Notes under the pieces: model-generated | What the model was told of the DNA's origin: nothing | Seen by the model: only the letters and a program-made list of their open reading frames with translations | Database searches by the model: none | Position numbers and translations under genes: made by a program | DNA from: a phage | DNA: 64,000 nucleotides | Sequence record: PZ540767.1 | Strand: one strand, 5' to 3' | Shown: piece after piece, positions 12,301-63,840 of the stretch | How the letters are laid out: each line of letters begins with the position of its first letter | Numbering within the stretch: position 1 is the stretch's first letter

Positions 12301-15300
12301 AATCAGCAAGATCGAAAGCCAGAACGTGCATGATGCTAACATCCTGTCTCCTGACAATGTGCTGAAAGGTGCTCGTATCCAGAACAAAGCTATGTTTGAT
12401 GCTGTGGTTTCTTATCATCCTCAACATCTGGCTGCTTCTGCACTGCTGACTGAAGTTCGTAGTCTGGCTGGTGCTAACCTGTCTACCAACGACAAGGTTG
12501 CAGCGAAGAAAGCTCTGGAAGCCATGAAGACTAAGATCCTGGGTAAAGACTTCAAGGGCAACATGAAAGCTGCTCTGAACACTATCCTTAACCAGGCATA
12601 TGATCGTGACATTAAGAAACTGGAGACTCTCTCTGAAGTCTATGCTGTTAACCAGTATGGTACTGAGGGGGGTGAATACCTGATCACTGATACTGATCGT
12701 AAGAAAATTGGTGATGAGATTGCACGTCTGAAACGTAGTCGTGCTGCTGGCTTACAACGTATCTCTGCTATGTTCTCTAAGGGTAATGCCCCAAAGGCTG
12801 AGGCCAACCAGTATCCTGATAAGATGAGACAATACCTGTATGAGGCTTCGGCCTCTACAGGCTCTGTGTCAGCTTCTGAGGTGATGGCTCGTACCAAAGG
12901 TAAGTTTGCTAACCCAGTATATAACGAACTCCACAATCTCATTTCTGGTTTGATTCCAGCTGATGCTGTGGTGAACGTACTGGATGGGCAGACTATGCCT
13001 AAGAATGTTAAGGGGCAGTCACTGCCCCAGAACCGTGATGCCATTGCATGGTCTTATCAAGATAAAAACACTGCACAGGTTAACCTGTCACTCAGCAAAG
13101 AGGCTTCACCTGAAGTCTTGCTGCATGAACTGACTCACATTGCTCTGGGACGTGCAATTGCTACTGCTGATTCAAATCCAAAAGTAAAAGCTGTACTGGC
13201 CCGTACAGAGAAGCTAATGGGTAGAGTGACCAAGCTGGTTTCAGCTGATCCTCAATTGACTCAGAAGTTTGCCCCTGCTTTGGCTAACGTGGATGAATTT
13301 ATCTCCTGGGGTATGACTAACCCAGAATTCCAACGTTACCTTGATACCATCACTGGTGTGCCTGAAATCTCAGGTCGTAACCGTGGATGGTTGGGTACTG
13401 CCTTTAAACAGTTTGTGGATCAAATGTCAGGCATCTTTGCTGCTGTAACTGGTCGAGCTATTAATGCTCGGGTTACTACTGCTCTGGAAGCTCTGACCTT
13501 CGATACTGCACATCTGGTTCAGGCTATTAATCCTACTGCTATTGAGAGTCCTGTATCTTCTATCAGCCACCCTATGAGCAACACTAACAGTGCTGCTGAT
13601 CAGGTAGCTAAGTTTAGCCATGTGGATATCTTTGATAACCTGGCTTCAACAGGTGGCAAGACTAACTCAGCACAGTTCACAGGTAACCTCCGTAATGTAA
13701 TATCCACTGTGGCGGATCAGCTTTACGGTGCTTTAGGCTCCAGAGTCACCCAGAATGCCAATGAGAATTATACTCCTGGTCAAGTCTGGAATGAGGCTGT
13801 AGCCACTGGGAAAGCCCCTGTCAGCACCGAAGCACTGAGCAATGGGTTTGTACTGACTAATCAGGAAGCCTTTGCTGTGGAGGCCATTGAGGCTGCTGTA
13901 TCTGAATCTCTGGCTTCTGGTTTCACTTCACCAGTTAACCGGGAGATTCGTCGTACTTGGCAAGCTGCTAAACAATCCCTGAAACCAGAAGACTTCCATA
14001 ATGGAAACTGGAATCAGGCAACTCAAGCAGAAAAACGAGCTGCTCAACAGAAATGGAATTATCTGTTTGATGTAACGAATGACTCTGGTGAGTCCCAGCA
14101 TCTGTCTCGTTTCGTTGCTATGGCTATTGGGCATGAAGACACCAGTAACTTACTTGGCTTCCAGATGGAAGATGGTAAGGACTCTGGTAATACTGCCTTT
14201 GAACAGGCTACTGCTTACTTTAACCAGGCTGTTAATACAGTCTCTGGCATGTTGACCAATACCCATCAAGGACAAGCTGCAAATGCTCGTGCTCAAGCAC
14301 TAGCTGAAAAGCTGATCCAGATTGAACTTAAGAACCGTGATACCACCATGAATATTCTTACTGGTGGGATCGACAAAGTAGAGAATGCCTTAGATACGGC
14401 TGCTGCTAAGTCTAAACAGTTCCTGGGTAAAATCGTTAAAGCTACTGGTATTGATCAGTCCTCCAACAATGCTCTGAATGCTATGGGCAAAGTTGCAGGA
14501 TTGGCTGCTCGTGATCAGCTGGGTAGCCTGAAAGAAACTATTAAAGAGTTCCGGGACTTTAATGCCCCTAGTACTCCAGAAGGTTCTCTGGCTTCCATTC
14601 TGACTGAAGCAACGAATGCTGATGATGTTCGTGCTCTGCATGAATCTCTGTTACGTTCTACTAAACGTATTGAACAGGATCGTGCAACCTTAGCTGCTGT
14701 TACTGCTAAGAACTTAAATGAGATGTTTGATAACAATGGTCAAGACCTGACTAAAGAAGATCGTACAGCAATGACTTACTCACTGCTTCGTACTGATCTT
14801 CAGTCTGTGTTGCACATTGAAGGTATGAACCTGAATAACTTACATAAACTGGTTTCTAATACTGGTTATCGTAAGCAGCAGATCAATAACCTTGAGAAAA
14901 CCATTAGCCAGTATGCTAACGGTAATGATAAGATCATTCGTGCCAAGGCTCTGGGATTCTGGATGGCTACTGGCAGAAATACCCTGGGACGTGATTTAGT
15001 TCTGAATGCAAAAGCTATTGCTACCGGAGCTGCTACTCACTATTCCACAGTAGGTATCGAACCGACTCTTGATGAAGTGAACGCCATTGATGCTCTGGCT
15101 TCAATGTACGCTCTAAGCTACACCAAGACCGAAAACCGTGTTCGCACTGCTGCTGTAATGGAACGTGAGCTTGCACGAGGTAAAGACAATGGCATTAAAA
15201 TGCTGATGGCTACTTATGCGAACCTGATTGAGGATTCTGCTAATACGCTGTTTGCTGGTAACCAGTTGTCTCGCATTAAAGGCTATTTGCCTGAAGATAC

Positions 15301-17050
15301 CAATCCTCATCATGACTTACGTGCGGTTGAGTCGGGGAGTGCAGATGAAGCAGCACTGGTGAACATGGGATACCAAAAAGTATCCCCACTGTCCCAGGAC
15401 TCTTTGTCAAAACACTCTGGACGTGTACTGTATGTGACCAAAGAGAATGGGTATCAACGAACCGTCTCTGGTACTTTCAGTTTAACTGGAAGCCAGCGTA
15501 AAGGTTCTTCCCTAAGTGGGGATCGTGCTGTTGCTGATCGTGTTCGAGCTGACGAGTTAGAACAGTTAAGGCAAGCGTCCTATGCAGACGTGCGAGGGCG
15601 TGAAGCACTGTCCCACACTGCCTTTGATCCTACTCAGATCCAGGATAACCATGTAGTGCCTGTATTAAGCACTGATGGTCATATCATGGACTTCCGTTAC
15701 ATGGCTACCCACAATACTCGTGACACGTTCCTTGATCGTAATAATGACTTTGCTGACCTTGTTGGTCGTCTGGCTGGTCAGAATATCGATAAGGGTGATG
15801 CCCCAAGCCAGAATGCTAAGATCCTGGAAGCTCTGCATGAAGACTCTAAGGCTAATATCCTGAAGAATCCTAATGCTTACTTTGAGATTGGGCCTAATGC
15901 ACCTACTGAGCGAGGACGTGAGATCTGGGCAATGATGCCTTATGAAGCACGTACTAAAGCTACTTCTCTGTGGGGTGCTGATCGTATGTATATTCGAAAC
16001 GATCTGGTTAACCTTACTTTTGGCTTCCGTAAGTATTCACTGGCTAACATTTTTGATGTTGATCCAGAACAGCGTAATATTGCTCAGGGTGTTGCTGCTG
16101 GTTTACTTGAAGCTGCTTTTGGTGATAAGGCTAAAGCTTATGTAATTAAGGGTGAGCGTGGCATTCAGGAATTTATGCAGTCCTATAAGGACGTGATCGT
16201 TATTCGTAACCTGAAAACCCAGTTCAGTAATATTATGTCTAATACTGCTCTACTGGCTGCTTATGGCGTTAACCCGGTACGTATGGTTAAAGATATCCGT
16301 ACTGCTCTGGTTGCTGGGATTGACTACCGTAAACAGTACTCGCTGCTACTCAAGTATCAGCAACAGCAACGTGCTGGTATTGGTAACTTTGCTCAGATGG
16401 AGTCCCTGATCAATGAGACGCAGGATCGCTTGAATGCTAACCCTCTGGCTAAGTTTATTCAGGCAGGTATGATGCCTACCATCGTAGAAGACGTTCAGCC
16501 TGATGCTGATGGTTACACTTATGGTTCTAAGATCCGTAAGAAATTTAATGAGGTATCTGCCCATCTGCCAGCTTCTGCTGTAACAGCTGCTCGCTGGGCT
16601 GTGATTGATAAAGGTACTGCACCTCATAAATTCTTAAGTGATGCTGCTCAGTTCAGTGACTTTGCTGCTAAGTATGCTCTGTATAAGCACCTGACAGAAC
16701 ATGCCCGAGATCGCCTGAGTCATACTGAGGCTTTACAACGTGCATCTGATGCTTTTGTTAACTATGACATTCCAGCTACAGCTACTCGCCAATATCTGGA
16801 TGATATGGGGATTACCATGTTTACGAAGTATCGTGTTCGTATCCAACGTGCAATGTTCTACTTGATGGATAAACGTCCAGCATCTGTTATGGCACATATG
16901 GCAATTACAGGGCAGTTTACTCATGCACCTGATGCTATGGAGCCACTGTTTGCACGTAACTTAGGTAACCCATTCACACCTTCAGTATTGCAGGGTGGGA
17001 GTTTGTTGAATGTCCCAATGCCTTGGAACTTATTCAGAATGGCATACTAA
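6368..17050 (+). CDS. Giant virion-associated RNA polymerase (vRNAP-like, 3560 aa)
   Basis: Single uninterrupted 10.7-kb ORF; size class matches N4 vRNAP (~3500 aa); sits at the end of the structural operon; followed by a strong terminator. Confidence 0.8.
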   Translation: MRLQSGYSTILRNTQMAGNSSPLDKFLVPQQVTGQEAAQALPAPTQPTIAQRVNDASTRILNNLTGQGMYPTEEGEIARLKRINNEQSAYAKEVAAKDSDYGWSSTNFLDPETSSLTDRTASTFVNYGKALTDAVNGLAGKTDKTFKTLGNVLDQASIPNDALDAYRRVQAGKGTEADNALLDRQGAWWTQPIEVNQYGVPEMGNQTLRQRLDAINERQKTQNQSSYDNLEKLANPVQMQQAAADIEKSIEGKSGLDKFAAGLAAIARNPGAAGQTMVESAPYMVGGIPGMLASSAMQGGSVLSQYLDTQRKASDGQIPTAKDVAIGTGLGVVDGALNFAESIINRTAMLPGSKVLPAGVADRLVNAAQRIAPRSSTAAAALARVTAPTLDLAKNALTEGLVSGAQNQIEENYAKGKNEWDTKGNDVAFFQGIAAATGFGAPRAALSTAGEVANTAAQAMQKRTEAQDPVGQAARNTTPEDLMNPQSEGYNPAAAIRRAGMEWTRNTDATTDEQKAEIQSQAQSAMDAAQNDHQNNLDMINQRATAERTLADAGKFIPAIQERLDQLSNDPNADPDAVNQLQTILAQQTEARDAAQQQLDAMPSQEELAQSATRSAEVLDQAKSEFGKFSSATGMNTNTAKPENPTASDIISHPMSYTNEDLQEFVRNAPANATPAELGTLRALADAKVAENAVKTGSKVNSEIFKSTSNNLSLGDYQQGINTAVQAGDTNRIQSLMTGINNFETSHTAKADIAQQYLNEAKQNGKSYQILKTSNGWELNTGKRLDAKAQAKNGGFTIHKGSTGLVNNIVNEAKAITATRQYMEGIATPSTNQNVTGSTEQVASPEAQPEGAATVAGETGAQEQQAQPTISPLTTRDIRAMDQATLEKVMATTQQAMSSDTNPVLARNLDALDREWTRRADVATNQNRGVDAPHRKLDDSFKPKAQENEIQRSQAETTTQTEHTQADIDNESTGSESQQTAPVNVDDVVTNTDTLTETQQDNVAHGALSIFGKVGESLKALREKALAEPKGLQNLVLTGFNQRVRPGFGSPLVAVKDFINTLKTAVDTGSFTEVNRFLKQHISESKAEGAKQKALLKQFVEFHDHITANLDNIIRTKAPEYRYQDFAQFILDENGNFDSNTKTGIAAGIFSWLGENGDKMFLNQSEVAKTLRIKEDQLTPQAMSRMADIGYRQDLIMSQLGQRIYQAMGFAKRADVDPNRASKLQNALGAYALHAMYSNGYMEQSLMTAKEYFDLQTMGLDEQSAKEAAQAFQNDFGVSPNDAKHKIVFSRPARNFDAEGKPVAIEAISDIKNGMKDTRSLMSKLFGYDPAVREVLTTKPAGFKQKVFGKMNREVPSVLAARISKAMQYDYTIDQGVVNAMRTMSTVDNAALQHIFGVRTDADVPNEMEIFKKGREAKNADIQRSMEMGLDFANRRGTNPFWMPMEVWTNQRIGDLASEFNPQGSKVHRAMGGLSAHQVEISVARNAPVLDADGKPTQYGLFLVSLAQGMEEAPVIGADGKKLKSVDKQTYATFLPAFQNYLRKPENIKAVRAMQKVIAGSATTADTNVIKNAVAEYGMNGQSFAALHNLAQYATALESGKSSVKLLAQMESDGVTNGPILTNILNGSADFDLLKRGGIYREGDNITNMPTYRELGGQDYYELLGDAMRQHWADYKTNAPASQQGQIQALEYFSTGYGARSKAKTLATPFNYSAGIPALKAAMGRATVEDVYSKIGSLIPLAKSNNKADFAKAYAEVSKNLSVLLGQKVNLPRTADGLVKFSLNPAQTKRIIDVDSQTRGVATETAVNEVAADFIASRDANTSLVNTTFTLANLRYNAAKAALLKKRIAEGKIPVDAKGAPLEGLTQADLDKLSRMIPNMPSATGVLSENTKASGYPMAKVEKAFTAKSPATSIDIYFKEAANPKPAMDANGMLLSQGLVGGYKSTQSTVTETKLTNPGVAMGANVTQGTDAAISSDVISKIESQNVHDANILSPDNVLKGARIQNKAMFDAVVSYHPQHLAASALLTEVRSLAGANLSTNDKVAAKKALEAMKTKILGKDFKGNMKAALNTILNQAYDRDIKKLETLSEVYAVNQYGTEGGEYLITDTDRKKIGDEIARLKRSRAAGLQRISAMFSKGNAPKAEANQYPDKMRQYLYEASASTGSVSASEVMARTKGKFANPVYNELHNLISGLIPADAVVNVLDGQTMPKNVKGQSLPQNRDAIAWSYQDKNTAQVNLSLSKEASPEVLLHELTHIALGRAIATADSNPKVKAVLARTEKLMGRVTKLVSADPQLTQKFAPALANVDEFISWGMTNPEFQRYLDTITGVPEISGRNRGWLGTAFKQFVDQMSGIFAAVTGRAINARVTTALEALTFDTAHLVQAINPTAIESPVSSISHPMSNTNSAADQVAKFSHVDIFDNLASTGGKTNSAQFTGNLRNVISTVADQLYGALGSRVTQNANENYTPGQVWNEAVATGKAPVSTEALSNGFVLTNQEAFAVEAIEAAVSESLASGFTSPVNREIRRTWQAAKQSLKPEDFHNGNWNQATQAEKRAAQQKWNYLFDVTNDSGESQHLSRFVAMAIGHEDTSNLLGFQMEDGKDSGNTAFEQATAYFNQAVNTVSGMLTNTHQGQAANARAQALAEKLIQIELKNRDTTMNILTGGIDKVENALDTAAAKSKQFLGKIVKATGIDQSSNNALNAMGKVAGLAARDQLGSLKETIKEFRDFNAPSTPEGSLASILTEATNADDVRALHESLLRSTKRIEQDRATLAAVTAKNLNEMFDNNGQDLTKEDRTAMTYSLLRTDLQSVLHIEGMNLNNLHKLVSNTGYRKQQINNLEKTISQYANGNDKIIRAKALGFWMATGRNTLGRDLVLNAKAIATGAATHYSTVGIEPTLDEVNAIDALASMYALSYTKTENRVRTAAVMERELARGKDNGIKMLMATYANLIEDSANTLFAGNQLSRIKGYLPEDTNPHHDLRAVESGSADEAALVNMGYQKVSPLSQDSLSKHSGRVLYVTKENGYQRTVSGTFSLTGSQRKGSSLSGDRAVADRVRADELEQLRQASYADVRGREALSHTAFDPTQIQDNHVVPVLSTDGHIMDFRYMATHNTRDTFLDRNNDFADLVGRLAGQNIDKGDAPSQNAKILEALHEDSKANILKNPNAYFEIGPNAPTERGREIWAMMPYEARTKATSLWGADRMYIRNDLVNLTFGFRKYSLANIFDVDPEQRNIAQGVAAGLLEAAFGDKAKAYVIKGERGIQEFMQSYKDVIVIRNLKTQFSNIMSNTALLAAYGVNPVRMVKDIRTALVAGIDYRKQYSLLLKYQQQQRAGIGNFAQMESLINETQDRLNANPLAKFIQAGMMPTIVEDVQPDADGYTYGSKIRKKFNEVSAHLPASAVTAARWAVIDKGTAPHKFLSDAAQFSDFAAKYALYKHLTEHARDRLSHTEALQRASDAFVNYDIPATATRQYLDDMGITMFTKYRVRIQRAMFYLMDKRPASVMAHMAITGQFTHAPDAMEPLFARNLGNPFTPSVLQGGSLLNVPMPWNLFRMAY

Positions 17051-54157: not shown

Positions 54158-54412
54158 AGGAGCCTCTTTAGGATATAGGTTAAGACTGTCTTAAACCCCG
54201 TTAGCCTATAGGTTACTTTAGTCAAAATGGGGATTTTTGGTAAATTTAGAATATAGGTTGAAAGCGTACTAGTAGTACTAAGAAGTACTACCAGAACACT
54301 CTGAACTACTAAAAATGAGGGGAGACTAGCTCCCCTGCCAAAGGCATAGATAAGAATTAAGTGATGGTAATGAGTCGAGCGACTCACAGAAGTGACCGGA
54401 GGTCACAAAGGC

Positions 54413-54697: not shown

Positions 54698-54748
54698 AAG
54701 ATCCTCTTTACCGTTGATGGAAACACTCGCAAAGATGCCCGGAGGGCA

Positions 54749-55156
54749 TCAACGCTTAGTATTATCGCTATATATTTTATTGAAGAAGTTAAAAGCATCA
54801 GCGATATCAGATGTACTTTTAGGTTCCTGAATAGACCGATCATAGATAAATTGTTTAGGGTTGTTTATTTCCTGTCTTCTGAGCACTTCCTCTAGCATCT
54901 TACGTTGAAAATCTTTCATAGAGTTGTACACAGGTTGCTCCTCATTGCCTGGTTTCCAGTAGATCCAGCCTAATGGGGCAGACTCTAAGTCCATTTCAAT
55001 TCCTGGGATGGAATTTTTATGAATGACTTCAAATTGCCCTTCTACTGCTGCTATGACAGTAACTGGTTTCAGCTCCAGTTCTTGTATGCCTATGGCATTA
55101 GCTGTTTTGATTCTCTTAACAGTGCCCCTTGGCACCATGTATTTTATTGTGTCCAT
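54749..55156 (-). CDS. Paralogue 3 of 'KxIKTxxAIG' family (135 aa)
   Basis: N-terminal 'GTVKRIKTANAIGIQELELKP'; first ATG 55156. Confidence 0.5.
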   Translation of the reverse strand: MDTIKYMVPRGTVKRIKTANAIGIQELELKPVTVIAAVEGQFEVIHKNSIPGIEMDLESAPLGWIYWKPGNEEQPVYNSMKDFQRKMLEEVLRRQEINNPKQFIYDRSIQEPKSTSDIADAFNFFNKIYSDNTKR

Positions 55157-55649: not shown

Positions 55650-56924
55650 TTAGCTTAATGCATAGTTGGAACCACGGATTTTATCTCCGAGGTTGTTAGA
55701 CAGTTTGGTATATACCCCATCAGTGCTTCCATACAGCTGGTTCATCAGGGATTGCAGAATGGTGCTATCAGCGAATTCTGCCAGCATCTCTTTGTACCAG
55801 TACCGTACTTCATTACAGTTGTTTGGATGGGAACCAAAGGCATCGTGAACAGTAGCCACAGGGAATGGTTTGTAGGTCAGCATGAAGTTAACTTTACGCA
55901 TTACATCACGAGCTAAGTCGATAGGTAACTGCATGTAGTTGCTCCAGTTGATATCGTTGAGAATAACCATAGAAGACTGCTTATTCTCATTCCACAGACG
56001 GATACGACGTACCATATCACCAGTAGCTTCTTCAGCCTGCATACCCATGCTATTAGCCAGCAGACGTGCTTCCAGCATCTTCTGCACCTCTGCTACCAGT
56101 TCTGGATCGTAGTTGCACAGACGCTCCAGCTCACGCAGCAGATAGGCATCACAGCAGTGAATGGTATTGGCTACGTTAGCTCGGCCTTTCTCTGTACCCC
56201 GGTTCTCTTTGTATTCCATGGTGAAAGTAGCGTGATCAAGCTCATCTACTTCAATTCTGGTTTCCAGAGTTTCCATGACTTTCATCTTAGCGATGAAGCC
56301 ATCAGGCAGCTCCAGAACGTGTTCCAGAGCATACGGACGCCAGGAACCCAGGAGTTCATCCATGAGGTTGAACGCACCAGGAGCGATGATGTGGGCTGCT
56401 TCGTAGAAGTAGTCCAGCATCTCGCCCTCACCGAATACCTTCTTAGGCACAGCCTTAGAACCGTAACCAGAGGTCATTACAGCTTGTTTGATATGGCTAC
56501 GAGGTACTTGGATACTATCCAGACCTTTACGCTTCAGAACGCCATTCATGGCGTCTGTAGTGTTGCTGTAGGCATCCATACGCTTCTCTGGGTCAATACA
56601 ACCAGTGTTGTATGCACCTCTCTCACAGCCTGTGAGGGCACTCATAATCTGAATTCCAGAGCAGCAACCATCCCAGTAGGTGATGTTGCCTACAGCTTCC
56701 CCACGCTGTACACGACGTAAAGTCATAACAGCTTTGTGGTACAGCTCAGGGGTTTCAGCATCTTGAACCTTAGATTCCAGATCCTTGATGTTGTCGTATA
56801 CCCACTGAATACGTTCTTCGAACAGTTTCTTGTCCAGACCGTAATAGTTGGCTACGTCGATGCACATGTATTCCCAACCAGACATATATTTGAAGTTTGG
56901 GCCATAAGCGGTGTTGATTACCAT
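55650..56924 (-). CDS. Phage RNA polymerase II, large (catalytic) subunit; T7-like single-subunit RNAP C-terminal half
   Basis: 'DGCCSGIQIMSALTG' (T7 RNAP motif A-like DGSCSGIQ) and 'VHDAFGSHP' (motif C-like HDSFG). Confidence 0.85.
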   Translation of the reverse strand: MVINTAYGPNFKYMSGWEYMCIDVANYYGLDKKLFEERIQWVYDNIKDLESKVQDAETPELYHKAVMTLRRVQRGEAVGNITYWDGCCSGIQIMSALTGCERGAYNTGCIDPEKRMDAYSNTTDAMNGVLKRKGLDSIQVPRSHIKQAVMTSGYGSKAVPKKVFGEGEMLDYFYEAAHIIAPGAFNLMDELLGSWRPYALEHVLELPDGFIAKMKVMETLETRIEVDELDHATFTMEYKENRGTEKGRANVANTIHCCDAYLLRELERLCNYDPELVAEVQKMLEARLLANSMGMQAEEATGDMVRRIRLWNENKQSSMVILNDINWSNYMQLPIDLARDVMRKVNFMLTYKPFPVATVHDAFGSHPNNCNEVRYWYKEMLAEFADSTILQSLMNQLYGSTDGVYTKLSNNLGDKIRGSNYALS

Positions 56925-56941
56925 TAGTTAAGTCTCTCTAT

Positions 56942-57949
56942 TTAAAGTTTAAATTCATCAGGCACACCAGTTACTTGCTCTTTATTGGCAAAGTTTAAAC
57001 TGGCTTTCTTGAAGGGAGTGCCTTGAAGGTTGATGTGATAACCCTGGGTATACAGACGTCCACGTTTGTCAGGTTTATTGCCAAAGTAGAACTTATTACC
57101 CTGGTTTACCATCAGGCTATAGAAGTAGTACGACTGACGTTTGTAACGCATCCAGTTGTCTTTCTGTTTACGTACCAGATCAGCCTTCTCCCACGGTGTG
57201 AGAGGTTTCTTACGGTGTTTCTGGAGCTTCTCTTCATCGATCTCATTGAGATCAAATGTAGGTTCTTCTTCGTAGTTACAGAGGAATTCTACGTCCAGAG
57301 AGTAAGGCACAGCATTACGGCTGTTGATTACATCCAGACAGATATCCTCATTATGGTGATTGAATGATCCCCCTAGAATAAGGCTATCAGATGAATAAGT
57401 AAGGTAAGGAGTATCCATGTTATGGGTAAGCTTCTTGGGTGGGCAAACCAGTGGTGGTAGATAACACGAACGCTCAATGAATTGAGCCAACTGGTCAGGC
57501 AACCCAATATTGCTAACGATATACAGAGATGCTTTAGGATGAGGCTTGTTAATGTCATATACATCAGTATCCGTAAGGACAGCAACGATTTCAGCCATAG
57601 TCTGAATGCTGTCACGTTTATCATCGAAACCCAGTCTGGAAGCCAGCTGGCCTACTACGTTGACCATTGGAGTAGGTTCAGGGAAATACATAATTCCCAC
57701 GAACACTTCTTTCACAATAGCTTCCAGATCAAGGGATTTGAGGTGGTTAAGGCGTACAGCTTTAGAGTCGTAATACTCACCCTCAAGCCACTGGTTTAAC
57801 AGAGATACACCCTGTTCTACCTTGTCTAACAGGTTGCAATCAGGGTCTTCAAACAGCTCTTTACGGATATAACCATCAATATGTTTCCTGTTGAACTGAC
57901 GTTCATTGATGGCCTGAAGTTCCTCAACTGGTAACCATTTATGCTGCAT
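56942..57949 (-). CDS. Phage RNA polymerase II, small subunit (N-terminal half of split T7-like RNAP)
   Basis: Immediately upstream of catalytic subunit in same orientation; 335 aa; N4 gp15/gp16-like split arrangement. Confidence 0.65.
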   Translation of the reverse strand: MQHKWLPVEELQAINERQFNRKHIDGYIRKELFEDPDCNLLDKVEQGVSLLNQWLEGEYYDSKAVRLNHLKSLDLEAIVKEVFVGIMYFPEPTPMVNVVGQLASRLGFDDKRDSIQTMAEIVAVLTDTDVYDINKPHPKASLYIVSNIGLPDQLAQFIERSCYLPPLVCPPKKLTHNMDTPYLTYSSDSLILGGSFNHHNEDICLDVINSRNAVPYSLDVEFLCNYEEEPTFDLNEIDEEKLQKHRKKPLTPWEKADLVRKQKDNWMRYKRQSYYFYSLMVNQGNKFYFGNKPDKRGRLYTQGYHINLQGTPFKKASLNFANKEQVTGVPDEFKL

Positions 57950-58594: not shown

Positions 58595-58640
58595 GGTATA
58601 TCCTCAATTAAATAGCCCAGCACTAGGCTGGGCATATGAA

Positions 58641-58931
58641 TTACAGTTCGAAGTTTTCGAGTGCCTTGGCATCACCGAAGGTGACTGACAGACGCTCTCC
58701 CAGAGCCTCTACGCCGTGCTCACGAATGAAGGCCAGTACTGCACCTTCAACCGGGTGATCTTCACGCAGAGCGATGCCACGGCCACCCTGACCCAGGCGA
58801 CGAACCTGACCGTCACGGCCTTTGACGCCGATGTTCAGATAGCCACCAATGTTACGCTCAACAGGAGCAGCAGCATTGTTAGCAGAGGAATTGGAAGTGT
58901 TGTTTGCAGCAGTGTTTTTCTGATAAGCCAT
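58641..58931 (-). CDS. Early protein (96 aa), first gene after a hairpin promoter; possible RNAP II cofactor by position only
   Basis: ATG 58931 (MAYQKN...) after gaggt RBS; Asn/Ala-rich N-terminus, Gly/Arg-rich core. Confidence 0.45.
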   Translation of the reverse strand: MAYQKNTAANNTSNSSANNAAAPVERNIGGYLNIGVKGRDGQVRRLGQGGRGIALREDHPVEGAVLAFIREHGVEALGERLSVTFGDAKALENFEL

Positions 58932-58992
58932 GATAAATACCTCGATAGTTAATATGAAATGAAGAACGAACAGGCAGGATTGCCTTTGCATT

Positions 58993-59011
58993 CATTGCCC
59001 TGTGGGCAATG
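58993..59011 (-). promoter_or_regulatory. Hairpin promoter candidate (N4 vRNAP-type), instance 1
   Basis: + strand gcaTTCATTgccc-TGT-gggcaatg: 8-bp stem, 3-nt loop; ~60 nt upstream of ATG 58931. Confidence 0.5.
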
Positions 59012-59014
59012 TTT

Positions 59015-59275
59015 TTACAGAAGAAAGATGGACGAGATAACATCTTCATAGGCAGCATGTTCTGCCGGATCAGAGATAATGAGAGCCTGATATTCATGAA
59101 GAGTATCAATACAGTCTTCAGTGAGGATTTCAGCTACTACATTGAGTGCTTCAGCCTCACCCACATTTGCACACAAATGGCTTACAGCACGGGTGAATAG
59201 CTTCAAAGCTAACTCATCCATACCACCTTCATAAGCCAGTTGGCATTGTTCCAGAGTAATATTTACATCGATCAT
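59015..59275 (-). CDS. Small strongly acidic early protein (86 aa)
   Basis: ATG; 16 Asp+Glu versus 2 Lys+Arg. Confidence 0.45.
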   Translation of the reverse strand: MIDVNITLEQCQLAYEGGMDELALKLFTRAVSHLCANVGEAEALNVVAEILTEDCIDTLHEYQALIISDPAEHAAYEDVISSIFLL

Positions 59276-59565
59276 GAGAATGAGATCCGTTGTTCAAGGA
59301 TAACTGGGACTCCAATGGCTACTTTAGCCATCAGAGCTTTAATTTCACGCATATCTACTTTGATAGTGAAGTTCTTTTTATAAAAACCATCTAGCGAAGC
59401 TGGGAAGTCTACCACTGCAATACGTGGAAACTTCTCCAGTGCTACATTGAATTTGGTAATAGTGATAGTGGCATTAATGCCAATGTTGAAGTCACTATAA
59501 TAAGATATAGTACCTTCACCCAGCATCTTAGAATGCCAGTTAAATACTTGGTTAGAATTGGTCAT
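59272..59565 (-). CDS. Hypothetical early protein (97 aa)
   Basis: ATG after ggaga RBS. Confidence 0.4.
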   Translation of the reverse strand: MTNSNQVFNWHSKMLGEGTISYYSDFNIGINATITITKFNVALEKFPRIAVVDFPASLDGFYKKNFTIKVDMREIKALMAKVAIGVPVILEQRISFS

Positions 59566-59806
59566 CGTCTAGTTTCTCCAGACACAGATACTGACCTTTG
59601 CTCATAATTGCATAGTCAATACCATTAAGAGTTAGATAGTCTTCAGTCCCCAGATTTCTGCTACCATCACGCATCTTGTTCTGTAGTCTTATGTCCTCTG
59701 GTTTAATACCAATGGCTAGTTTAGTTTGAATAGTTTTAGCTTCAGCTTCATCTACCCTAACCATCAATGAGGGATGAATATCCCCAAATACAGCATAGTA
59801 GCTCAT
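59552..59806 (-). CDS. Hypothetical early protein (84 aa)
   Basis: ATG; acidic. Confidence 0.4.
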   Translation of the reverse strand: MSYYAVFGDIHPSLMVRVDEAEAKTIQTKLAIGIKPEDIRLQNKMRDGSRNLGTEDYLTLNGIDYAIMSKGQYLCLEKLDDDQF

Positions 59807-59939
59807 GTTACCCCCATACTGATATTAACCAGTCATACTCCTCCTGGGTTAATACAGGTTTATATTGCTCAATTACATTGAGTGCATTATTGAAGTTCTC
59901 ATTGCAGAAGAATGAGATGATTGCAAAGTATTTCATTGG

Positions 59940-60278
59940 TTATACCTTGGGTAAGTTTTGGATGCTTCCAGCATTACTTGACCAACGCCCACTAACTACG
60001 CCATGGAGCCTCTCTTTAGGTACATACTTCTTAAATTCCCACATACCATTTTTATTAAGGAATACATCAAATCCCATAAACATTTCATCAGCATGACCAC
60101 GATTGGTAGAAGTATGTTTTTGGTTTTTACGTTTAATACGAGAACCATCAATACAGTACCCATCAAGGGTACAGCCAATGGCTAAAGCCATCTTTACTTT
60201 CTTGAGCCATGCATCAGTAACACGGATATGAATACACTTTTGCATAGCAGGTGCATAGACATAGATTATTTTACTCAT
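59940..60278 (-). CDS. Hypothetical early protein (112 aa)
   Basis: ATG; downstream of hairpin promoter instance 2. Confidence 0.45.
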   Translation of the reverse strand: MSKIIYVYAPAMQKCIHIRVTDAWLKKVKMALAIGCTLDGYCIDGSRIKRKNQKHTSTNRGHADEMFMGFDVFLNKNGMWEFKKYVPKERLHGVVSGRWSSNAGSIQNLPKV

Positions 60279-60344
60279 AGTAATCTTCCCATAATAAATA
60301 GAGGATTAAGATAAAACCAGATATGTAAGCAAGCAATAACATAT

Positions 60345-60566
60345 TCATTTATTGTCCTGTGGACAATATACCTCCCAATCTGTCCATTTTTGAGCTAGGA
60401 AGCCTTCTACAGTATCTGTGATAGTATGGCCATCAAGAAATCTTACAAGTATTATACTATCCTGGGACAATGTTATATAAGAACCACTATCCCATACTGA
60501 TCTTTTTATCTTAGCCCCTAGTTTCAGCATTAATAATGCTTCTTTAGCAGTCATATAATGTACCAT
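60345..60566 (-). CDS. DUF2829/Tad2-like small protein, copy 1
   Basis: N-terminus 'MTAKEALLMLKLGAKIKRSVW'. Confidence 0.5.
   Translation of the reverse strand: MVHYMTAKEALLMLKLGAKIKRSVWDSGSYITLSQDSIILVRFLDGHTITDTVEGFLAQKWTDWEVYCPQDNK
60350..60368 (-). promoter_or_regulatory. Hairpin promoter candidate, instance 2
   Basis: + strand ataTTCATTtattgtcc-TGT-ggacaata; overlaps 3' end of the preceding small ORF; ~75 nt upstream of ATG 60278. Confidence 0.5.
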
Positions 60567-60742
60567 TCATGTGATTCATCGAAGAATGAACAGAATTCAG
60601 ATACTTTAATAAGCCCAGGTGGGATAGTGTTATCACAACATACATTATCCCCTTTGATATAATAAAAGAGTTCTGGTTTCATCCAGTCAGCTCTGATCTT
60701 ACATCCGATCTTCATTGCTAACAGGGCTTCCTGAGTCGTCAT
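60551..60742 (-). CDS. DUF2829/Tad2-like small protein, copy 2
   Basis: Start at internal ATG 60742: 'MTTQEALLAMKIGCKIRADW'. Confidence 0.5.
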   Translation of the reverse strand: MTTQEALLAMKIGCKIRADWMKPELFYYIKGDNVCCDNTIPPGLIKVSEFCSFFDESHEWYII

Positions 60743-60938
60743 ATAATTTCCACTCCATATCTGCATATTCTTCAGTAAACTTATTAACAGCACAGGCTAG
60801 ACTGACAAAGTTTAATGGTTTATGTACATAGCAAATACAGTTGCCTTGTAAATCATAATAGTTAGTATAATCAGTCCAGGTAGCAGGAATAACCTTGCAA
60901 CCTATTTTCATTGCAAGCAATGCTTCAGCTGTTGTCAT
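60699..60938 (-). CDS. DUF2829/Tad2-like small protein, copy 3
   Basis: 'MTTAEALLAMKIGCKVIPATW'. Confidence 0.5.
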   Translation of the reverse strand: MTTAEALLAMKIGCKVIPATWTDYTNYYDLQGNCICYVHKPLNFVSLACAVNKFTEEYADMEWKLYDDSGSPVSNEDRM

Positions 60939-61128
60939 TGAATAACTCCCAATTATCTACGTCACCATAACAAGGTATATAGTCTTCAAGTACCAAATGG
61001 GGAGTACCATCTTCATTAACTGTTATATCATCTATAGGATCATATTGTACCCAATCACCTGGTGCCCATGTTTCCCTTCGTACTTTGCATCCTAGTTTAA
61101 GAGCTAGTACTGCTTCTTTGGTTTTCAT
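60925..61128 (-). CDS. DUF2829/Tad2-like small protein, copy 4
   Basis: Start at internal ATG 61128: 'MKTKEAVLALKLGCKVRRETW'. Confidence 0.5.
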   Translation of the reverse strand: MKTKEAVLALKLGCKVRRETWAPGDWVQYDPIDDITVNEDGTPHLVLEDYIPCYGDVDNWELFNDNS

Positions 61129-61174
61129 CCCCTGTCTCCAGTAGACCGATTCACAAGAGTGTTCGGAGAACACG

Positions 61175-61204
61175 TTAATAAACTAAGCCCTCCAGTGAGG
61201 GCTT
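61175..61204 (-). terminator. Hairpin, terminator-like, upstream of the paralogue array
   Basis: aagccctc-cagt-gagggctt 8-bp stem; U/A-rich downstream on - strand. Confidence 0.4.
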
Positions 61205-61208
61205 TTGT

Positions 61209-61481
61209 TTAATATGAATATTCAATACGTTTCCAGTGCTCAAGGTTGAGTACACCACCATCTTTGATATGTTTGAGCATAGTAAGCAGTAAAACATACA
61301 GCTTATCTTTCTCACCTTTAATCTCTGATTTAACGTGATAGAACTCTTCACCCATGATGGTTATTTCAATACGATTGACATACCACTGCTGACCTAAATG
61401 ATCTTGAATCAGTCTACGAGTGATATGAGGATATGATGCTTCTTTGACAGCTTTACGATGCAGCTCTAATTCAAGATCCAT
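61209..61481 (-). CDS. Hypothetical early protein (90 aa)
   Basis: ORF with ATG. Confidence 0.45.
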   Translation of the reverse strand: MDLELELHRKAVKEASYPHITRRLIQDHLGQQWYVNRIEITIMGEEFYHVKSEIKGEKDKLYVLLLTMLKHIKDGGVLNLEHWKRIEYSY

Positions 61482-61670
61482 AGTTATAGTCCTACATTTA
61501 CCCAGCCTACACTGGGTATAAGAATTGAACGGATATTTAATGTTTTCAGAGAGCGTATGAAGTAATGGTTATCCCTCAACTTATACGTCTCATAGATATG
61601 AAAGTTCATGATATTTCTAACACGTGCAGCAAAGTGATCATACCCTTTACCTTTCTTAATCATAAATACC

Positions 61671-61922
61671 TCAATTGTAGTTTTCGTACATGTCGTAGCA
61701 CACTTTGAAGTGTTTACGAGCTTTACGTATTTGCTTACGAGTAGGCTTAGTTACAAACGTATAATAACGTTCGTAGGGCAGACCATAGTTATGATTAGTT
61801 ACCGATTGTTGACTGAATACCAGTTGCCAGAAACTTGGCACTGATTCAATGATGCCATTACCAATACTAAACTTGTATGCGGATACAAATACAACATCGG
61901 TATAGATTGTAGTAGTGCTCAT
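61671..61922 (-). CDS. Early protein, paralogue A of 'TKPTxKQ(I/V)R' pair (83 aa)
   Basis: 'YTFVTKPTRKQIRKARKH'. Confidence 0.45.
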   Translation of the reverse strand: MSTTTIYTDVVFVSAYKFSIGNGIIESVPSFWQLVFSQQSVTNHNYGLPYERYYTFVTKPTRKQIRKARKHFKVCYDMYENYN

Positions 61923-61935
61923 AATTACCTCTGGT

Positions 61936-62127
61936 TTAATGTACTGGGATTACTAAAGTATTATGACCAGCAAAGCTGACTTTATTACTATCTTTGATGA
62001 GCACACAGTTATGGTTATCACCATCTTCTGTGGCTTTCTGCCATACATTACGGTCACCATATGCCCATGTCTGAGCAAACATGAACTGAGCACCATCTTC
62101 TAATTCATGGAATTTAATTACTTGCAT
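61936..62127 (-). CDS. Hypothetical early protein (63 aa)
   Basis: ATG after agagga RBS. Confidence 0.4.
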   Translation of the reverse strand: MQVIKFHELEDGAQFMFAQTWAYGDRNVWQKATEDGDNHNCVLIKDSNKVSFAGHNTLVIPVH

Positions 62128-62192
62128 GATTTAATCCTCTAATTCAGCATATTGATTAATAGCCCTGGTTTCACAGGGCTTATTAAATAGGG

Positions 62193-62477
62193 TTAGAACC
62201 AATGTGGGTAATCAGCCATGAACTGGGCTAATTCACGCTCATGCTCACTGATAGCTGTACGCTTACAACGACGTACTTGCTTAGCTGTAGGCTTGGCTGT
62301 AAATGCATACTGGTGCATTGATGAGGACATGGGATTGTTATCCACTACCAATTCAACAGCTACACACCATTGAGCAGGTTGAACCATATCATCAGGGAAA
62401 CCGCTACGTTTAGTGATTTCGTTAACTGCACAAGGGTCAGCAGGTAAGAACATTACGGAGGTTTTAATAACACGCAT
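62193..62477 (-). CDS. Early protein, paralogue B of 'TKPTxKQ(I/V)R' pair (94 aa)
   Basis: 'YAFTAKPTAKQVRRCKRT'. Confidence 0.45.
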   Translation of the reverse strand: MRVIKTSVMFLPADPCAVNEITKRSGFPDDMVQPAQWCVAVELVVDNNPMSSSMHQYAFTAKPTAKQVRRCKRTAISEHERELAQFMADYPHWF

Positions 62478-62529
62478 AGTTAATACTCCAATAGGTTATA
62501 TACCCTGGCTTACACCAGGGCTTGAGTGA

Positions 62530-62745
62530 TTAGAATGGGCAACCAGTTTCAGCTTCGAGCTTGTCCATGAAGTAGCCTTCATTGTGCAAGCGAGCGTGCA
62601 GCTCTACATGACTTTGCATACGATAGTTATCGAGTAATGACAGGAAGTCTGCATACTCGGTATCAGTTGCCCTACGAGCATTACTCATGTCTACAGGCTT
62701 AGTGCTAAAGCAATTCTCAATCATACGAATGTCAGAAGTACGCAT
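62530..62745 (-). CDS. Hypothetical early protein (71 aa)
   Basis: ATG after ggag RBS; ~40 nt downstream of hairpin promoter instance 3. Confidence 0.45.
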   Translation of the reverse strand: MRTSDIRMIENCFSTKPVDMSNARRATDTEYADFLSLLDNYRMQSHVELHARLHNEGYFMDKLEAETGCPF

Positions 62746-62782
62746 AGGTATATCTCCAATAGATTAAGTGGACACTTCTATT

Positions 62783-62800
62783 CATTGCCTGTAGGCAATG
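62783..62800 (-). promoter_or_regulatory. Hairpin promoter candidate, instance 3
   Basis: + strand cttctaTTCATTgcc-TGTA-ggcaatg; 7-bp stem. Confidence 0.5.
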
Positions 62801-62930
62801 CATGGTCGTAGTACTGTCGCTGTCGCTTCGTACTACTCCCTGTGTAATACCAGTGTTCATTAGAATGGCTTACAGAGACTGTGACTATTAGTTATTATTT
62901 TAAAGGCAACCCGTTAGGGTTGCCTCTATT

Positions 62931-63152
62931 TCAAAACGGAATCTCATCACTGAATCCTGACAGATTCACTGGATAAAACTCATGCCAGTAATAAGACTGA
63001 TCATGAGCCTCAATGGACTCTGCACGGATTTCCTTATACATACCACTGTTACGAACTTCTTGCAGGGCAGCTTCCGCTTCCTCAAGAGTTCCAAAGGTAT
63101 CTACAAAGGTATCTGCATAGAGATCCCCAGGTACAACAGTAAGTAAGAACAT
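62931..63152 (-). CDS. Acidic early protein with SSB-tail-like C-terminus (73 aa)
   Basis: ATG after ggaga RBS; ends '...NLSGFSDEIPF'; first gene after hairpin promoter instance 4. Confidence 0.5.
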   Translation of the reverse strand: MFLLTVVPGDLYADTFVDTFGTLEEAEAALQEVRNSGMYKEIRAESIEAHDQSYYWHEFYPVNLSGFSDEIPF

Positions 63153-63203
63153 AATATGTTCTCCAAATCAATGATAGGACACCATGTCCTATCTCTTCTA
63201 TTC

Positions 63204-63220
63204 ATTCTCCTGTGGAGAAT
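63204..63220 (-). promoter_or_regulatory. Hairpin promoter candidate, instance 4
   Basis: + strand cttctaTTCATTctcc-TGT-ggagaat; 7-bp stem, 3-nt loop; ~52 nt upstream of ATG 63152. Confidence 0.5.
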
Positions 63221-63769: not shown

Positions 63770-63801
63770 TGTGTATTGTGTATGATGTGTATTGTGTATG
63801 A
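63770..63801. repeat. Perfect 16-bp tandem duplication (tgtgtattgtgtatga x2)
   Basis: Read directly: 63770-63785 identical to 63786-63801, in non-coding C-poor region. Confidence 0.8.
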
Positions 63802-63840
63802 GTCGAAGACACCGCAACACCGAAGCGAAGCGAGTGTGTA

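What the first reader, a model, noticed from the sequence alone, without database searches (positions are those of the whole stretch)
58993..63220. Four conserved hairpin elements upstream of early genes, candidate vRNAP promoters
At 58993-59011, 60350-60368, 62783-62800 and 63204-63220 the + strand (template for minus-strand genes) carries TTCATT followed by a 7-8 bp perfect inverted repeat with a TGT (once TGTA) loop. Two share an extended 'cttctattcatt' leader. Each lies 40-75 nt upstream of a minus-strand start codon. N4 vRNAP is known to recognise promoters as template-strand hairpins with 5-7 bp stems and 3-nt loops, so these are good candidates for the injected giant polymerase's promoters.
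Basis: partly seen in the sequence, partly recalled or inferred. Interest (0 to 1): 0.65.

Follow-up and report, generated by a model that had tools for sequence, protein, structure and literature searches.

The report
Predicted hairpin early promoters, N4-like phage
Four small DNA hairpins at the front end of this N4-like Klebsiella phage genome are very probably the start signals read by the RNA polymerase the phage injects with its DNA; this is an expected feature of the phage family, seen here in a version with its own loop sequence.

Summary
Four perfect inverted repeats (7-8 bp stems, loop TGT, once TGTA) lie at the stated coordinates. They are the only hairpins of this type with stems of 6 bp or more on either strand of the 64-kb window. 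All four are on the template strand of the early genes.

The window is an N4-like Klebsiella phage (Schitoviridae, Efbeekayvirus) with a 3560-aa virion RNA polymerase (vRNAP) gene. Relatives keep the elements, and their variable stem positions change by fully compensated swaps.

The elements do not match N4's own promoter consensus (C-GRA-G loop, -10G, -8G, +1C at 11 nt). They match the hairpin family mapped as early promoters in Pseudomonas phage LUZ7 and predicted in Pectobacterium CB1-like phages. That family has a 3-nt loop closed by C:G and a coding-strand R-T-G with a G 13-14 nt from the loop centre.

Site 1 sits directly before the Drc homolog, as the strongest LUZ7 early promoters do.

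A second, N4-like C-GGA-G hairpin family (61159, 54734, 54392) probably marks middle promoters, but it is the main rival for the vRNAP role.

Verdict: interpretation supported, not experimentally proven. It is a new member of a known kind, of modest interest.

The parts
63198..63220 (-). Promoter S4, transcribing leftwards on the minus strand with the + strand as template. Hairpin ATTCTCC-TGT-GGAGAAT lies at 63204-63220. Predicted start is template C at 63198, an RNA G 14 nt from the loop centre at 63212.
   Evidence: It lies in a window-specific cassette. The relatives' leftmost promoter has the stem ATTACCC/GGGTAAT, which is two compensated pair swaps.
62778..62800 (-). Promoter S3. Hairpin CATTGCC-TGTA-GGCAATG lies at 62783-62800 and has a 4-nt loop. 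Predicted start is template C at 62778.
   Evidence: It sits at the position of the relatives' leftmost promoter, with the shared left flank AGTGrAyACTTCTAT. K17alpha62 has a 6-bp version. P19-618 has ATTGCC-CGTG-GGCAAT.
60346..60368 (-). Promoter S2. Hairpin TATTGTCC-TGT-GGACAATA lies at 60350-60368 and overlaps the last codons of ORF 60345-60566. Predicted start is template C at 60346, 13 nt from the centre at 60359.
   Evidence: It is unchanged in 8 of the 9 fetched relatives (L001, L003-L009). Halo_KS_7 keeps 7 bp with different flanks.
58989..59011 (-). Promoter S1. Hairpin CATTGCCC-TGT-GGGCAATG lies at 58993-59011, directly after the stop codon of ORF 59015-59275. Predicted start is template C at 58989, 13 nt from the centre at 59002.
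   Evidence: It is unchanged in all relatives. It sits directly upstream of the Drc homolog, like the two strongest LUZ7 early promoters.
6368..17050 (+). Virion RNA polymerase gene (3560 aa), the enzyme proposed to read the hairpins.
   Evidence: The C-terminal domain matches the N4 vRNAP structures. The polymerase domain is 39% identical to Cbunavirus and 25% to LUZ7, and no N4 record was seen among the rows listed; 180 of the 220 matching records were not listed.
58641..58931 (-). Drc-family ssDNA-binding RNAPII cofactor gene (96 aa), the first gene behind S1.
   Evidence: phrog_6271, E = 1.3e-9. 38% identical to CB4_021, E = 2e-17. 31% identical to LUZ7 Drc, with Y23 and R37 aligned. GADU21 annotates it as such.
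58615..58633 (-). Terminator-like hairpin with a T-run, directly after the Drc gene.
55650..57949 (-). RNAPII genes: small subunit 56942-57949 and large subunit 55650-56924. They are early genes that must be transcribed before RNAPII exists.
   Evidence: phrog_2166, E = 3e-110, and phrog_2051, E = 1.5e-137.
62904..62925 (-). Stem-loop ending the S4 transcription unit, upstream of S3.
61185..61204 (-). Terminator ending the S3 transcription unit.
61159..61173 (-). Second-family hairpin GTGTTC-GGA-GAACAC on the template strand. It is a candidate middle (RNAPII/Drc) promoter and lies between terminator 61185-61204 and the ATG at 61128.
54734..54750 (-). Second-family hairpin GATGCCC-GGA-GGGCATC, just downstream of the RNAPII operon.
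54392..54406 (-). Second-family hairpin GTGACC-GGA-GGTCAC.
62831..62855 (-). Decayed copy of the older leftmost promoter. It reads ACTCCCTGTGTAATACCAG; the intact form in relatives reads ATTACCCTGTGGGTAATACCAC.

Best explanation
The four elements are early promoters for the injected virion RNA polymerase (vRNAP) of an N4-like Klebsiella phage.

Proposed mechanism, inferred by analogy with N4 and LUZ7:
1. After the left genome end enters the cell, negative supercoiling extrudes the inverted repeat.
2. The hairpin on the + (template) strand presents a 3-nt T-G-T loop closed by two C:G pairs.
3. vRNAP recognises the hairpin shape plus the loop and loop-proximal bases.
4. It starts RNA synthesis on the single-stranded template 13-14 nt from the loop centre, at a template C.

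Predicted RNA 5' ends on the minus strand are 58989, 60346, 62778 and 63198.

The resulting units express a 73-aa protein (S4), a block of small early genes (S3, S2) and the Drc cofactor (S1). Read-through from S1 would reach the RNAPII genes.

Shown here: sequence, specificity, conservation, covariation, shared motif and genomic context. Inferred: which polymerase reads the hairpins, hairpin extrusion, and the exact start sites.
For: 1. The phage is N4-like, with a 3560-aa vRNAP ORF and RNAPII genes.

2. The motif is unique to the early region and to one strand, both in 64 kb here and in the 76-kb FBKp27 genome.

3. Structure is conserved rather than sequence. The genus has five stem variants of the form ATT-NN-CC/GG-N'N'-AAT. 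Three pairs carry double-sided changes, 94.6% of cells are paired, and 0 of 500 shuffles reach the observed covariation; slid controls give 34-43% pairing. Across 18 distinct sites in four genera, the closing C:G is 18/18 and the inner five pairs are Watson-Crick in 87/90 cells, with 2-4 pair types per position.

4. The initiation motif is shared. On the coding strand, R is at +11, T at +12 (17/18), and a G at +13 or +14 (18/18). This matches the LUZ7 rule from ONT-cappable-seq and primer extension: the start is a G 13-14 nt from the hairpin centre (PMC9163698).

5. The position matches. The paper reports the two strongest LUZ7 early starts 33 nt apart, driving Drc. These fit hairpins 3663-3675 and 3695-3707, whose centres are 32 nt apart. 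S1 sits directly before the Drc homolog. The CB4 GenBank record annotates the equivalent hairpin as an N4-type early promoter.

6. The LUZ7 early region (1-8.2 kb) has no C-GGA-G hairpin, so its 5-min starts belong to the genus-specific family.

7. Sigma-70-like sites are fewer than chance in 54-64 kb (16 found against 26 +/- 6), and none serves these genes.

8. The loop triplet differs by genus (GTA, TAT, TGT, and GRA in N4). This tracks a fast-diverging vRNAP: 39% and 25% identity, with no N4 record seen among the rows listed. RNAPII is more conserved: 64%, 46% and 32%.
Against: - No transcript 5' ends or biochemistry exist for this genus.
- Of the bases N4 vRNAP reads, only the -11 purine and -9C are kept. 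-10G, -8G, the sheared G:A loop pair and +1C at 11 nt are all absent.
- A T-G-T loop lacks the feature that makes N4 hairpins unusually easy to extrude. Predicted DNA stabilities are modest (-4.6 to -8.2 kcal/mol) and the same on both strands.
- S3 has a 4-nt loop.
- A second hairpin family with the true N4 loop (C-GGA-G) lies on the same template strand and could be the vRNAP target instead or as well.
- My matching of LUZ7 hairpins to the published early and middle classes rests on the paper's text. Its coordinate table was not available.
- The RNAPII genes have no hairpin of their own and lie behind the Drc terminator.
Confidence: 0.8

Rival explanations
1. The C-GGA-G hairpins (61159, 54734, 54392) are the vRNAP promoters, as in N4. 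The TGT hairpins are read by the phage RNAPII with Drc, as middle promoters or as a boost to early genes.
For: The GGA hairpins match N4 P2/P3 in loop, closing pair and stem length, followed by a T-rich spacer and a G. In LUZ7 both early and middle promoters are hairpins, so hairpin shape alone does not identify the polymerase.
Against: - No GGA hairpin precedes the leftmost seven or so genes here, and LUZ7 has none anywhere in 1-8.2 kb, yet those regions are transcribed first.
- LUZ7's strongest 5-min starts map upstream of Drc, where only the genus-specific hairpins lie.
- The GGA hairpins fit the paper's middle class: GC-rich, stem of 6 bp or more, about 15 nt to the start. A G lies at +14 in 7 of the 12 non-N4 sites (GAG at +14..+16 in 4 of them); N4 P1-P3 start earlier, with GG at +11/+12.
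- Drc and RNAPII would have to exist before their own promoter could work.
Confidence: 0.08
2. vRNAP reads both hairpin families. The 'middle' timing of GGA-linked starts only reflects later entry of that DNA into the cell.
For: Both families share a 3-nt loop closed by C:G and, in this phage, a central G. N4 vRNAP tolerates A or G at -11. Classification by timing cannot name the polymerase.
Against: - The two families have different spacing and initiation motifs: RTG at +11..+13 against GAG at +14..+16.
- In LUZ7 the early loop has a central T and the GGA loop a central G, which is hard to reconcile with one recognition pocket.
- The GGA family is conserved across genera whose vRNAPs are only about 25% identical.
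Confidence: 0.07
3. The palindromes are double-stranded operator sites for a dimeric phage or host DNA-binding protein, or RNA stem-loops in 5' leaders. They are not promoters.
For: They are perfect palindromes with conserved outer (ATT/AAT) and inner (CC/GG) bases. S2 and S1 lie inside or right after upstream genes, so read-through transcripts would contain them.
Against: - Variable positions change only by fully compensated swaps, which a protein half-site does not require.
- No G:T pairs occur in the window's four stems or in the five stem variants of the genus; an RNA helix would tolerate them. Across 18 sites in four genera only one T:G mismatch occurs among 90 inner-pair cells.
- A conserved asymmetric flank with a G at +13/+14 always points towards the downstream gene.
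- No T-run follows on the transcribed strand, so they are not terminators.
- Rfam finds nothing.
Confidence: 0.04

Closest known systems
LUZ7 early (vRNAP) hairpin promoters, mapped by ONT-cappable-seq and primer extension (Putzeys et al. 2022, PMC9163698); first predicted by Ceyssens et al. 2010 (PMC3715699)
   Same: - Template-strand hairpin with a 3-nt loop closed by C:G.
- Coding-strand R-T-G, with a G 13-14 nt from the loop centre.
- Several copies in the leftmost part of the genome, including directly upstream of the Drc gene.
   Different: - The loop is G-T-A in LUZ7 and PA26 and T-G-T here.
- LUZ7 stems are 4-5 bp and GC-rich. Here they are 7-8 bp with an AT-rich base (ATT/AAT).
- The LUZ7 sites have experimental 5' ends. 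These have none.
Predicted early hairpin promoters of Pectobacterium CB1-like phages (Cbunavirus; Buttimer et al. 2018, PMC6027278; annotated in GenBank KY549659)
   Same: - This is the closest outgroup genus: RNAPII 64% and vRNAP polymerase domain 39% identical.
- Same positions, including before the Drc homolog.
- Pyrimidine-purine-pyrimidine loop closed by C:G.
- Same RTG motif.
   Different: The loop is T-A-T with the core GC/GC or CC/GG, against T-G-T with CC/GG here. Both sets are computational predictions only.
Coliphage N4 vRNAP promoters P1-P3 (Haynes & Rothman-Denes 1985; Glucksmann et al. 1992; Davydova et al. 2007; Gleghorn et al. 2008; reviewed in PMC4496689)
   Same: - Template-strand hairpin with a 3-nt loop, a central purine and a C:G closing pair.
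- Loop-proximal pairs are conserved, while outer pairs vary but stay complementary.
[quoted passage not shown]
   Different: - N4's loop is G-R-A with a sheared G:A pair.
- N4 vRNAP reads -10G and -8G and starts at a template C 11 nt from the centre, after an A-rich spacer. None of these is present here.
- The vRNAP polymerase domains are too diverged to align by sequence.
LUZ7 middle (RNAPII/Drc) hairpin promoters (PMC9163698)
   Same: Also hairpins on the template strand, with a G start.
   Different: They are described as GC-rich, with stems of 6 bp or more, about 15 nt upstream of the start. In this window that description fits the C-GGA-G hairpins (61159, 54734, 54392), not the TGT hairpins.

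Membership tests
N4-type vRNAP promoter (P1-P3) | Inverted repeat giving a 5-7 bp stem and a 3-nt loop on the template strand | tested here: met
   Stems are 7-8 bp with a 3-nt loop in S1, S2 and S4. S3 has a 4-nt loop.
N4-type vRNAP promoter (P1-P3) | Purine at the loop centre (-11) and a C:G closing pair (-9C) | tested here: met
   The central base is G and the closing pair is C:G in all four sites.
N4-type vRNAP promoter (P1-P3) | -10G and -12A (sheared G:A loop pair) and -8G, read by K114, R904 and D901 | tested here: not met
   -10 is T, -12 is T and -8 is C, compared with N4 P1-P3 recovered and the rules.
N4-type vRNAP promoter (P1-P3) | +1 template C 11 nt from the loop centre, after an A-rich spacer | tested here: not met
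   The template base 11 nt from the centre is T in S1, S2 and S4. The C lies at 13 or 14 nt.
N4-type vRNAP promoter (P1-P3) | [quoted passage not shown] | tested here: met
   All four sites lie in the 4.2 kb upstream of Drc and RNAPII, on the correct strand.
N4-type vRNAP promoter (P1-P3) | Gyrase- and SSB-dependent extrusion, and specific initiation by vRNAP | not testable with these tools
   This needs in vitro transcription and structural probing.
LUZ7/CB1-type early hairpin promoter | Stem of 4 bp or more, with a 3-nt loop conserved within the genus and closed by C:G | tested here: met
   The closing C:G is 18/18 across four genera. The loop is constant within each genus.
LUZ7/CB1-type early hairpin promoter | G on the coding strand 13-14 nt downstream of the hairpin centre (the mapped start in LUZ7) | tested here: met
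   S1 reads ATGC and S2 reads ATGA, with G at +13. S4 reads ATAG, with G at +14. S3 has the same flank as S4. The motif is R-T-G in 18/18 family members. Actual 5' ends were not tested.
LUZ7/CB1-type early hairpin promoter | A copy directly upstream of the Drc gene, and copies at the left genome end | tested here: met
   S1 precedes the Drc homolog. S3 and S4 are the leftmost.
LUZ7/CB1-type early hairpin promoter | Active at the earliest time point and rifampicin-resistant | not testable with these tools
   No transcript data are available.
Intrinsic terminator | GC-rich hairpin followed by a U-run on the transcribed strand | tested here: not met
   On the minus strand the hairpins are followed by AATGAA or AATAGA. 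Only S1 has a T-run, and it is on the non-transcribed + strand and is not conserved in relatives.
Sigma-70 promoter | -35 and -10 hexamers with 16-18 nt spacing on the coding strand upstream of the genes | tested here: not met
   Sixteen sites were found against 26 +/- 6 expected. Only three weak ones are on the minus strand, and none lies at the hairpins apart from one 9/12 match at 58958-58930.
LUZ7-type middle promoter | GC-rich hairpin with a stem of 6 bp or more, about 15 nt upstream of a G start | tested here: not met
   The TGT stems have an AT-rich base and their G lies at +13/+14. The description fits the separate C-GGA-G family, which has a G at +14 in 7 of its 12 non-N4 sites and GAG at +14..+16 in 4.

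The most novel reading that the evidence does not exclude
Schitoviruses of the Drc clade may carry two hairpin promoter classes read by two different phage polymerases.

- One class has a loop triplet that acts as a genus-specific code (GTA, TAT, TGT) and co-evolves with the fast-diverging vRNAP.
- The other is a C-GGA-G class conserved across the family. In N4 it is the vRNAP promoter. In this clade it would have been handed over to RNAPII/Drc, or would still be read by vRNAP as later DNA enters.

Promoters also appear to turn over by duplication and decay, and to carry gene cassettes in with them. The S4 cassette and the relic at 62831-62855 are examples.
Probability: 0.3. Interest if true: 0.55.

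Novelty: new member of a known kind. Interest (0 to 1): 0.3.

Why it matters
- It gives this Klebsiella phage genus, which is used in phage-therapy work, a concrete early transcription map: four start sites predicted to the nucleotide, transcription-unit boundaries, and a corrected Drc start codon.
- It adds a third loop variant to a family with one experimentally mapped member. That makes a simple specificity-swap experiment possible: change the loop triplet against vRNAP from different genera.
- It does not change the current understanding of N4-like transcription.
- The co-existence of a genus-specific and a family-wide hairpin class is the more interesting thread. It bears on how two single-subunit polymerases divide up hairpin promoters.

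Tried and rejected
- **Aligning the vRNAP with solved N4 structures.** The aim was to check the promoter-reading residues W129, K114, R119, D901 and R904. phmmer aligns only the C-terminal domain, and the polymerase domain gives no usable alignment. I made no claim on those residues.
- **IMG/VR scan with ATTNATTNNCCTGTGGNNAAT.** It returned only more copies of the same genus plus chance hits in unrelated contigs, so it added no diversity.
- **DNA folding of both strands.** Energies are the same on both strands. Nearest-neighbour parameters cannot show a template-strand preference.
- **FBKp27 and Halo_KS_7 'promoter' annotations.** They do not coincide with the hairpins, apart from a partial overlap at S2, and the records give no notes for them. 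I did not use them as evidence.
- **LUZ7 TSS coordinate table.** The supplement is not held and the text gives no coordinates. The LUZ7 hairpin-to-class matching is therefore by description only.
- **PDB sequence search with the Drc homolog.** It found nothing. Homology was shown by pairwise BLASTP and PHROGs instead.
- **A fifth promoter beyond the window end.** I looked ahead of the membrane-protein gene in relatives and found none.
- **Rfam.** It returned no matches.

Full report
**What is there**

The window comes from an N4-like Klebsiella phage. It carries a 3560-aa ORF at 6368-17050. The C-terminal domain of that ORF matches the solved N4 virion RNA polymerase. The right-hand 6 kb is 88-93% identical to Efbeekayvirus phages of the family Schitoviridae, such as FBKp27, P184 and GADU21.

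Small genes on the minus strand fill 58.6-63.2 kb. They are followed by the two RNAPII subunit genes, 56942-57949 and 55650-56924. This is the early region of an N4-type genome, read leftwards, and the + strand is its template.

**The observation**

- S1, 58993-59011: CATTGCCC-TGT-GGGCAATG
- S2, 60350-60368: TATTGTCC-TGT-GGACAATA
- S3, 62783-62800: CATTGCC-TGTA-GGCAATG
- S4, 63204-63220: ATTCTCC-TGT-GGAGAAT

No other hairpin with a stem of 6 bp or more and a TGT or TGTA loop exists on either strand of the 64 kb. Dinucleotide-preserving shuffles give a mean of 0.28 such hairpins with stems of 7 bp or more. In the complete 76-kb FBKp27 genome, the only stems of 7 bp or more with this loop are its three early sites, all on the early-gene template strand.

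One detail of the description needs correcting. Aligned on the loop, the shared sequence is ATTYATT-NN-CC-TGT-GG-N'N'-AAT.

**Conservation and covariation**

S1 is unchanged in all nine fetched relatives. S2 is unchanged in eight of them (L001, L003-L009); Halo_KS_7 keeps 7 bp of the stem with different flanks. The IMG/VR contigs of the genus that carry S1 or S2 also have them unchanged.

The leftmost promoter in most relatives is ATTACCC-TGT-GGGTAAT, where the window's S4 has ATTCTCC-TGT-GGAGAAT. That is two fully compensated pair swaps within otherwise alignable flanks.

On the distinct variants:
- 94.6% of cells pair.
- Three pairs show changes on both sides.
- None of 500 shuffles reaches the observed covariation score.
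- Sliding the partner by 1-3 columns drops pairing to 34-43%.

The pattern is that the loop and the two loop-proximal C:G pairs are fixed, while the middle of the stem is free as long as it pairs. N4 promoters have the same design.

**Comparison with N4**

N4's P1, P2 and P3 were recovered at 90-102, 557-573 and 4546-4562 of its genome. Their template strands read C-GRA-G in a GC core, with a template C 11 nt from the loop centre. N4 vRNAP reads -11R, -10G, -8G and +1C.

The elements here keep only the central purine and the C:G closing pair. They are therefore not N4-type in sequence. This is not surprising, because the vRNAP polymerase domain is too diverged from N4's to align by sequence.

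**Comparison with closer relatives**

By RNAPII identity, the nearest outgroups are Pectobacterium Cbunavirus (64%) and the Pseudomonas LIT1/LUZ7 groups (about 46%). N4 is at 32%.

The CB4 GenBank record already annotates three "N4 early promoter" stem-loops (Buttimer et al. 2018). They read GC-TAT-GC on the template strand, and one precedes the ortholog of the gene behind S1.

In LUZ7, early starts were mapped experimentally. Nine early TSSs were found, most at hairpins with stems of 4 bp or more and a conserved 3-nt loop. The start is a G 13-14 nt from the hairpin centre, and the two strongest lie 33 nt apart, driving Drc. In the LUZ7 sequence the only matching elements upstream of Drc are AGACC-GTA-GGTCT and CAGGC-GTA-GCCTG. 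Their centres are 32 nt apart, and each has a G 13 nt downstream.

I anchored 18 distinct sites from four genera on the loop centre. The results were:
- The closing C:G pair is invariant.
- The inner five pairs are Watson-Crick in 87 of 90 cells, with several pair types at each position.
- The coding strand reads R at +11 and T at +12 (17/18).
- A G lies at +13 or +14 in 18/18.

The window's sites read ATGC, ATGA and ATAG at +11 to +14. The predicted starts are the template C residues at 58989, 60346, 62778 and 63198.

The gene behind S1 is a Drc-family protein:
- It matches phrog_6271.
- It is 38% identical to CB4_021.
- It is 31% identical to LUZ7 Drc, with Y23 and R37 aligned.

A terminator follows it directly at 58615-58633.

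**A second hairpin family**

The + strand also carries three hairpins with the true N4 loop:
- GTGTTC-GGA-GAACAC at 61159-61173
- GATGCCC-GGA-GGGCATC at 54734-54750
- GTGACC-GGA-GGTCAC at 54392-54406

This family is conserved in FBKp27, which has the same three and no others in its whole genome. It is also present in LUZ7, PA26, At2, Cbunavirus and N4 itself, where it is P2 and P3. Seven of its 12 non-N4 sites have a G at +14, and four of those read GAG at +14 to +16. N4 P1-P3 instead start with GG at +11/+12.

This raises the rival reading that the GGA family is the real vRNAP promoter. I judge it unlikely for four reasons:
- LUZ7 has no GGA hairpin anywhere in its early region, yet that region gave the mapped 5-min starts.
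- The two LUZ7 GGA hairpins lie just after the RNAPII genes. They fit the paper's description of middle promoters: GC-rich, stem of 6 bp or more, about 15 nt to a G start.
- In the window, no GGA hairpin precedes the leftmost genes.
- The family that stays the same across genera goes naturally with the better-conserved RNAPII (64%, 46%, 32%). The family whose loop changes by genus goes with the fast-diverging vRNAP polymerase domain, which is 39% identical to Cbunavirus and 25% to LUZ7, with no N4 record seen among the rows listed.

This assignment rests on the LUZ7 paper's text. Its coordinate table was not available.

**Other rivals**

- Host promoters: sigma-70-like sites are fewer than expected by chance in 54-64 kb.
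- Terminators: none of the hairpins is followed by a T-run on the transcribed strand.
- Known RNA families: Rfam finds nothing.
- Protein operators: these would not require compensated changes.
- RNA stems: no G:T pairs occur in the window's stems or in the genus's five stem variants, and only one T:G mismatch occurs among 90 cells across four genera. An RNA helix would tolerate such pairs.

**Promoter turnover**

The window's S3 occupies the position of the relatives' leftmost promoter and shares its left flank. Its right side, however, carries a decayed copy of the older hairpin at 62831-62855.

About 450 bp of the window (62855-63302) is absent from all relatives. It holds a stem-loop, a 73-aa ORF, promoter S4 and a long extra hairpin. 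Promoters in this genus therefore seem to be duplicated, replaced and carried in with gene cassettes.

**Verdict**

The elements are members of the known class of hairpin early promoters of N4-like phages. More precisely, they belong to the LUZ7/CB1-type subfamily, with a loop triplet (TGT) that I did not find described in the papers held. Function, start sites and the polymerase assignment remain to be shown experimentally.

Noticed in passing
window 61159-61173, 54734-54750, 54392-54406 (+ strand, the template for minus-strand genes): These are three hairpins with the N4 P2/P3-type loop C-GGA-G and a shared flank: coding-strand TGYGAG, with G at +12 and +14. The family is conserved in FBKp27 (only these three in 76 kb), LUZ7, PA26, At2, Cbunavirus and N4. 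They are probably middle (RNAPII/Drc) promoters, although in N4 the same hairpin type is read by vRNAP.
   Followed up: partly
window 62855-63302: A cassette of about 450 bp is absent from all fetched relatives. It holds stem-loop 62904-62925, a 73-aa ORF (62931-63152, no PHROG match) and promoter S4. [quoted passage not shown]
   Followed up: partly
window 63237-63268 (core 63242-63262): A long hairpin, GAGAACTAC-GTA-GTAGTTCTC, extends to about 14 bp with one bulge. It lies just upstream of S4 and inside the window-specific cassette. Its template-strand loop C-GTA-G is the LUZ7 early-promoter loop, and a template C lies 13 nt from its centre. Its function is unknown.
   Followed up: no
window 62831-62855: A decayed copy of the relatives' leftmost promoter. 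It reads ACTCCCTGTGTAATACCAG, against the intact ATTACCCTGTGGGTAATACCAC. It lies next to the newer S3 hairpin and is evidence of promoter duplication and replacement.
   Followed up: partly
L003 (Klebsiella phage P19-618), about 6505-6525: At the S3 position this phage has ATTGCC-CGTG-GGCAAT. This is a 16-nt perfect palindrome that amounts to a 6-bp stem with a 4-nt loop. No TGT-loop hairpin is found at its left end.
   Followed up: no
window 63173-63193 and 58972-58985: Stem-loops of 9 bp and 5 bp lie immediately downstream of the predicted S4 and S1 start sites, at the very 5' end of the predicted mRNAs. Smaller possible stems follow S2 and S3. They may be 5'-end stabilisers.
   Followed up: no
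window 58641-58991: Several relatives annotate the Drc homolog as 116 aa, starting at the ATG inside the promoter's AATGAA motif. That ATG coincides with the predicted transcription start. The 96-aa form (ATG at 58931, Shine-Dalgarno GAGG) is more likely.
   Followed up: partly
window 55650-58640: The RNAPII genes have no hairpin promoter of either family directly upstream, and they lie behind the Drc terminator (58615-58633). Their early expression would need terminator read-through. In N4, by contrast, P3 sits directly before gp15.
   Followed up: no
window 63230-63850: About 600 bp of non-coding DNA lies between the terminator (63854-63871) of a minus-strand ORF that runs off the window end (stop at 63879; by position, the 'membrane protein' gene annotated in relatives) and S4. 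It is conserved at 77-91% in relatives. Its position matches the non-coding stretch next to the terminal repeat in Cbunavirus, so it may hold the physical genome end.
   Followed up: no
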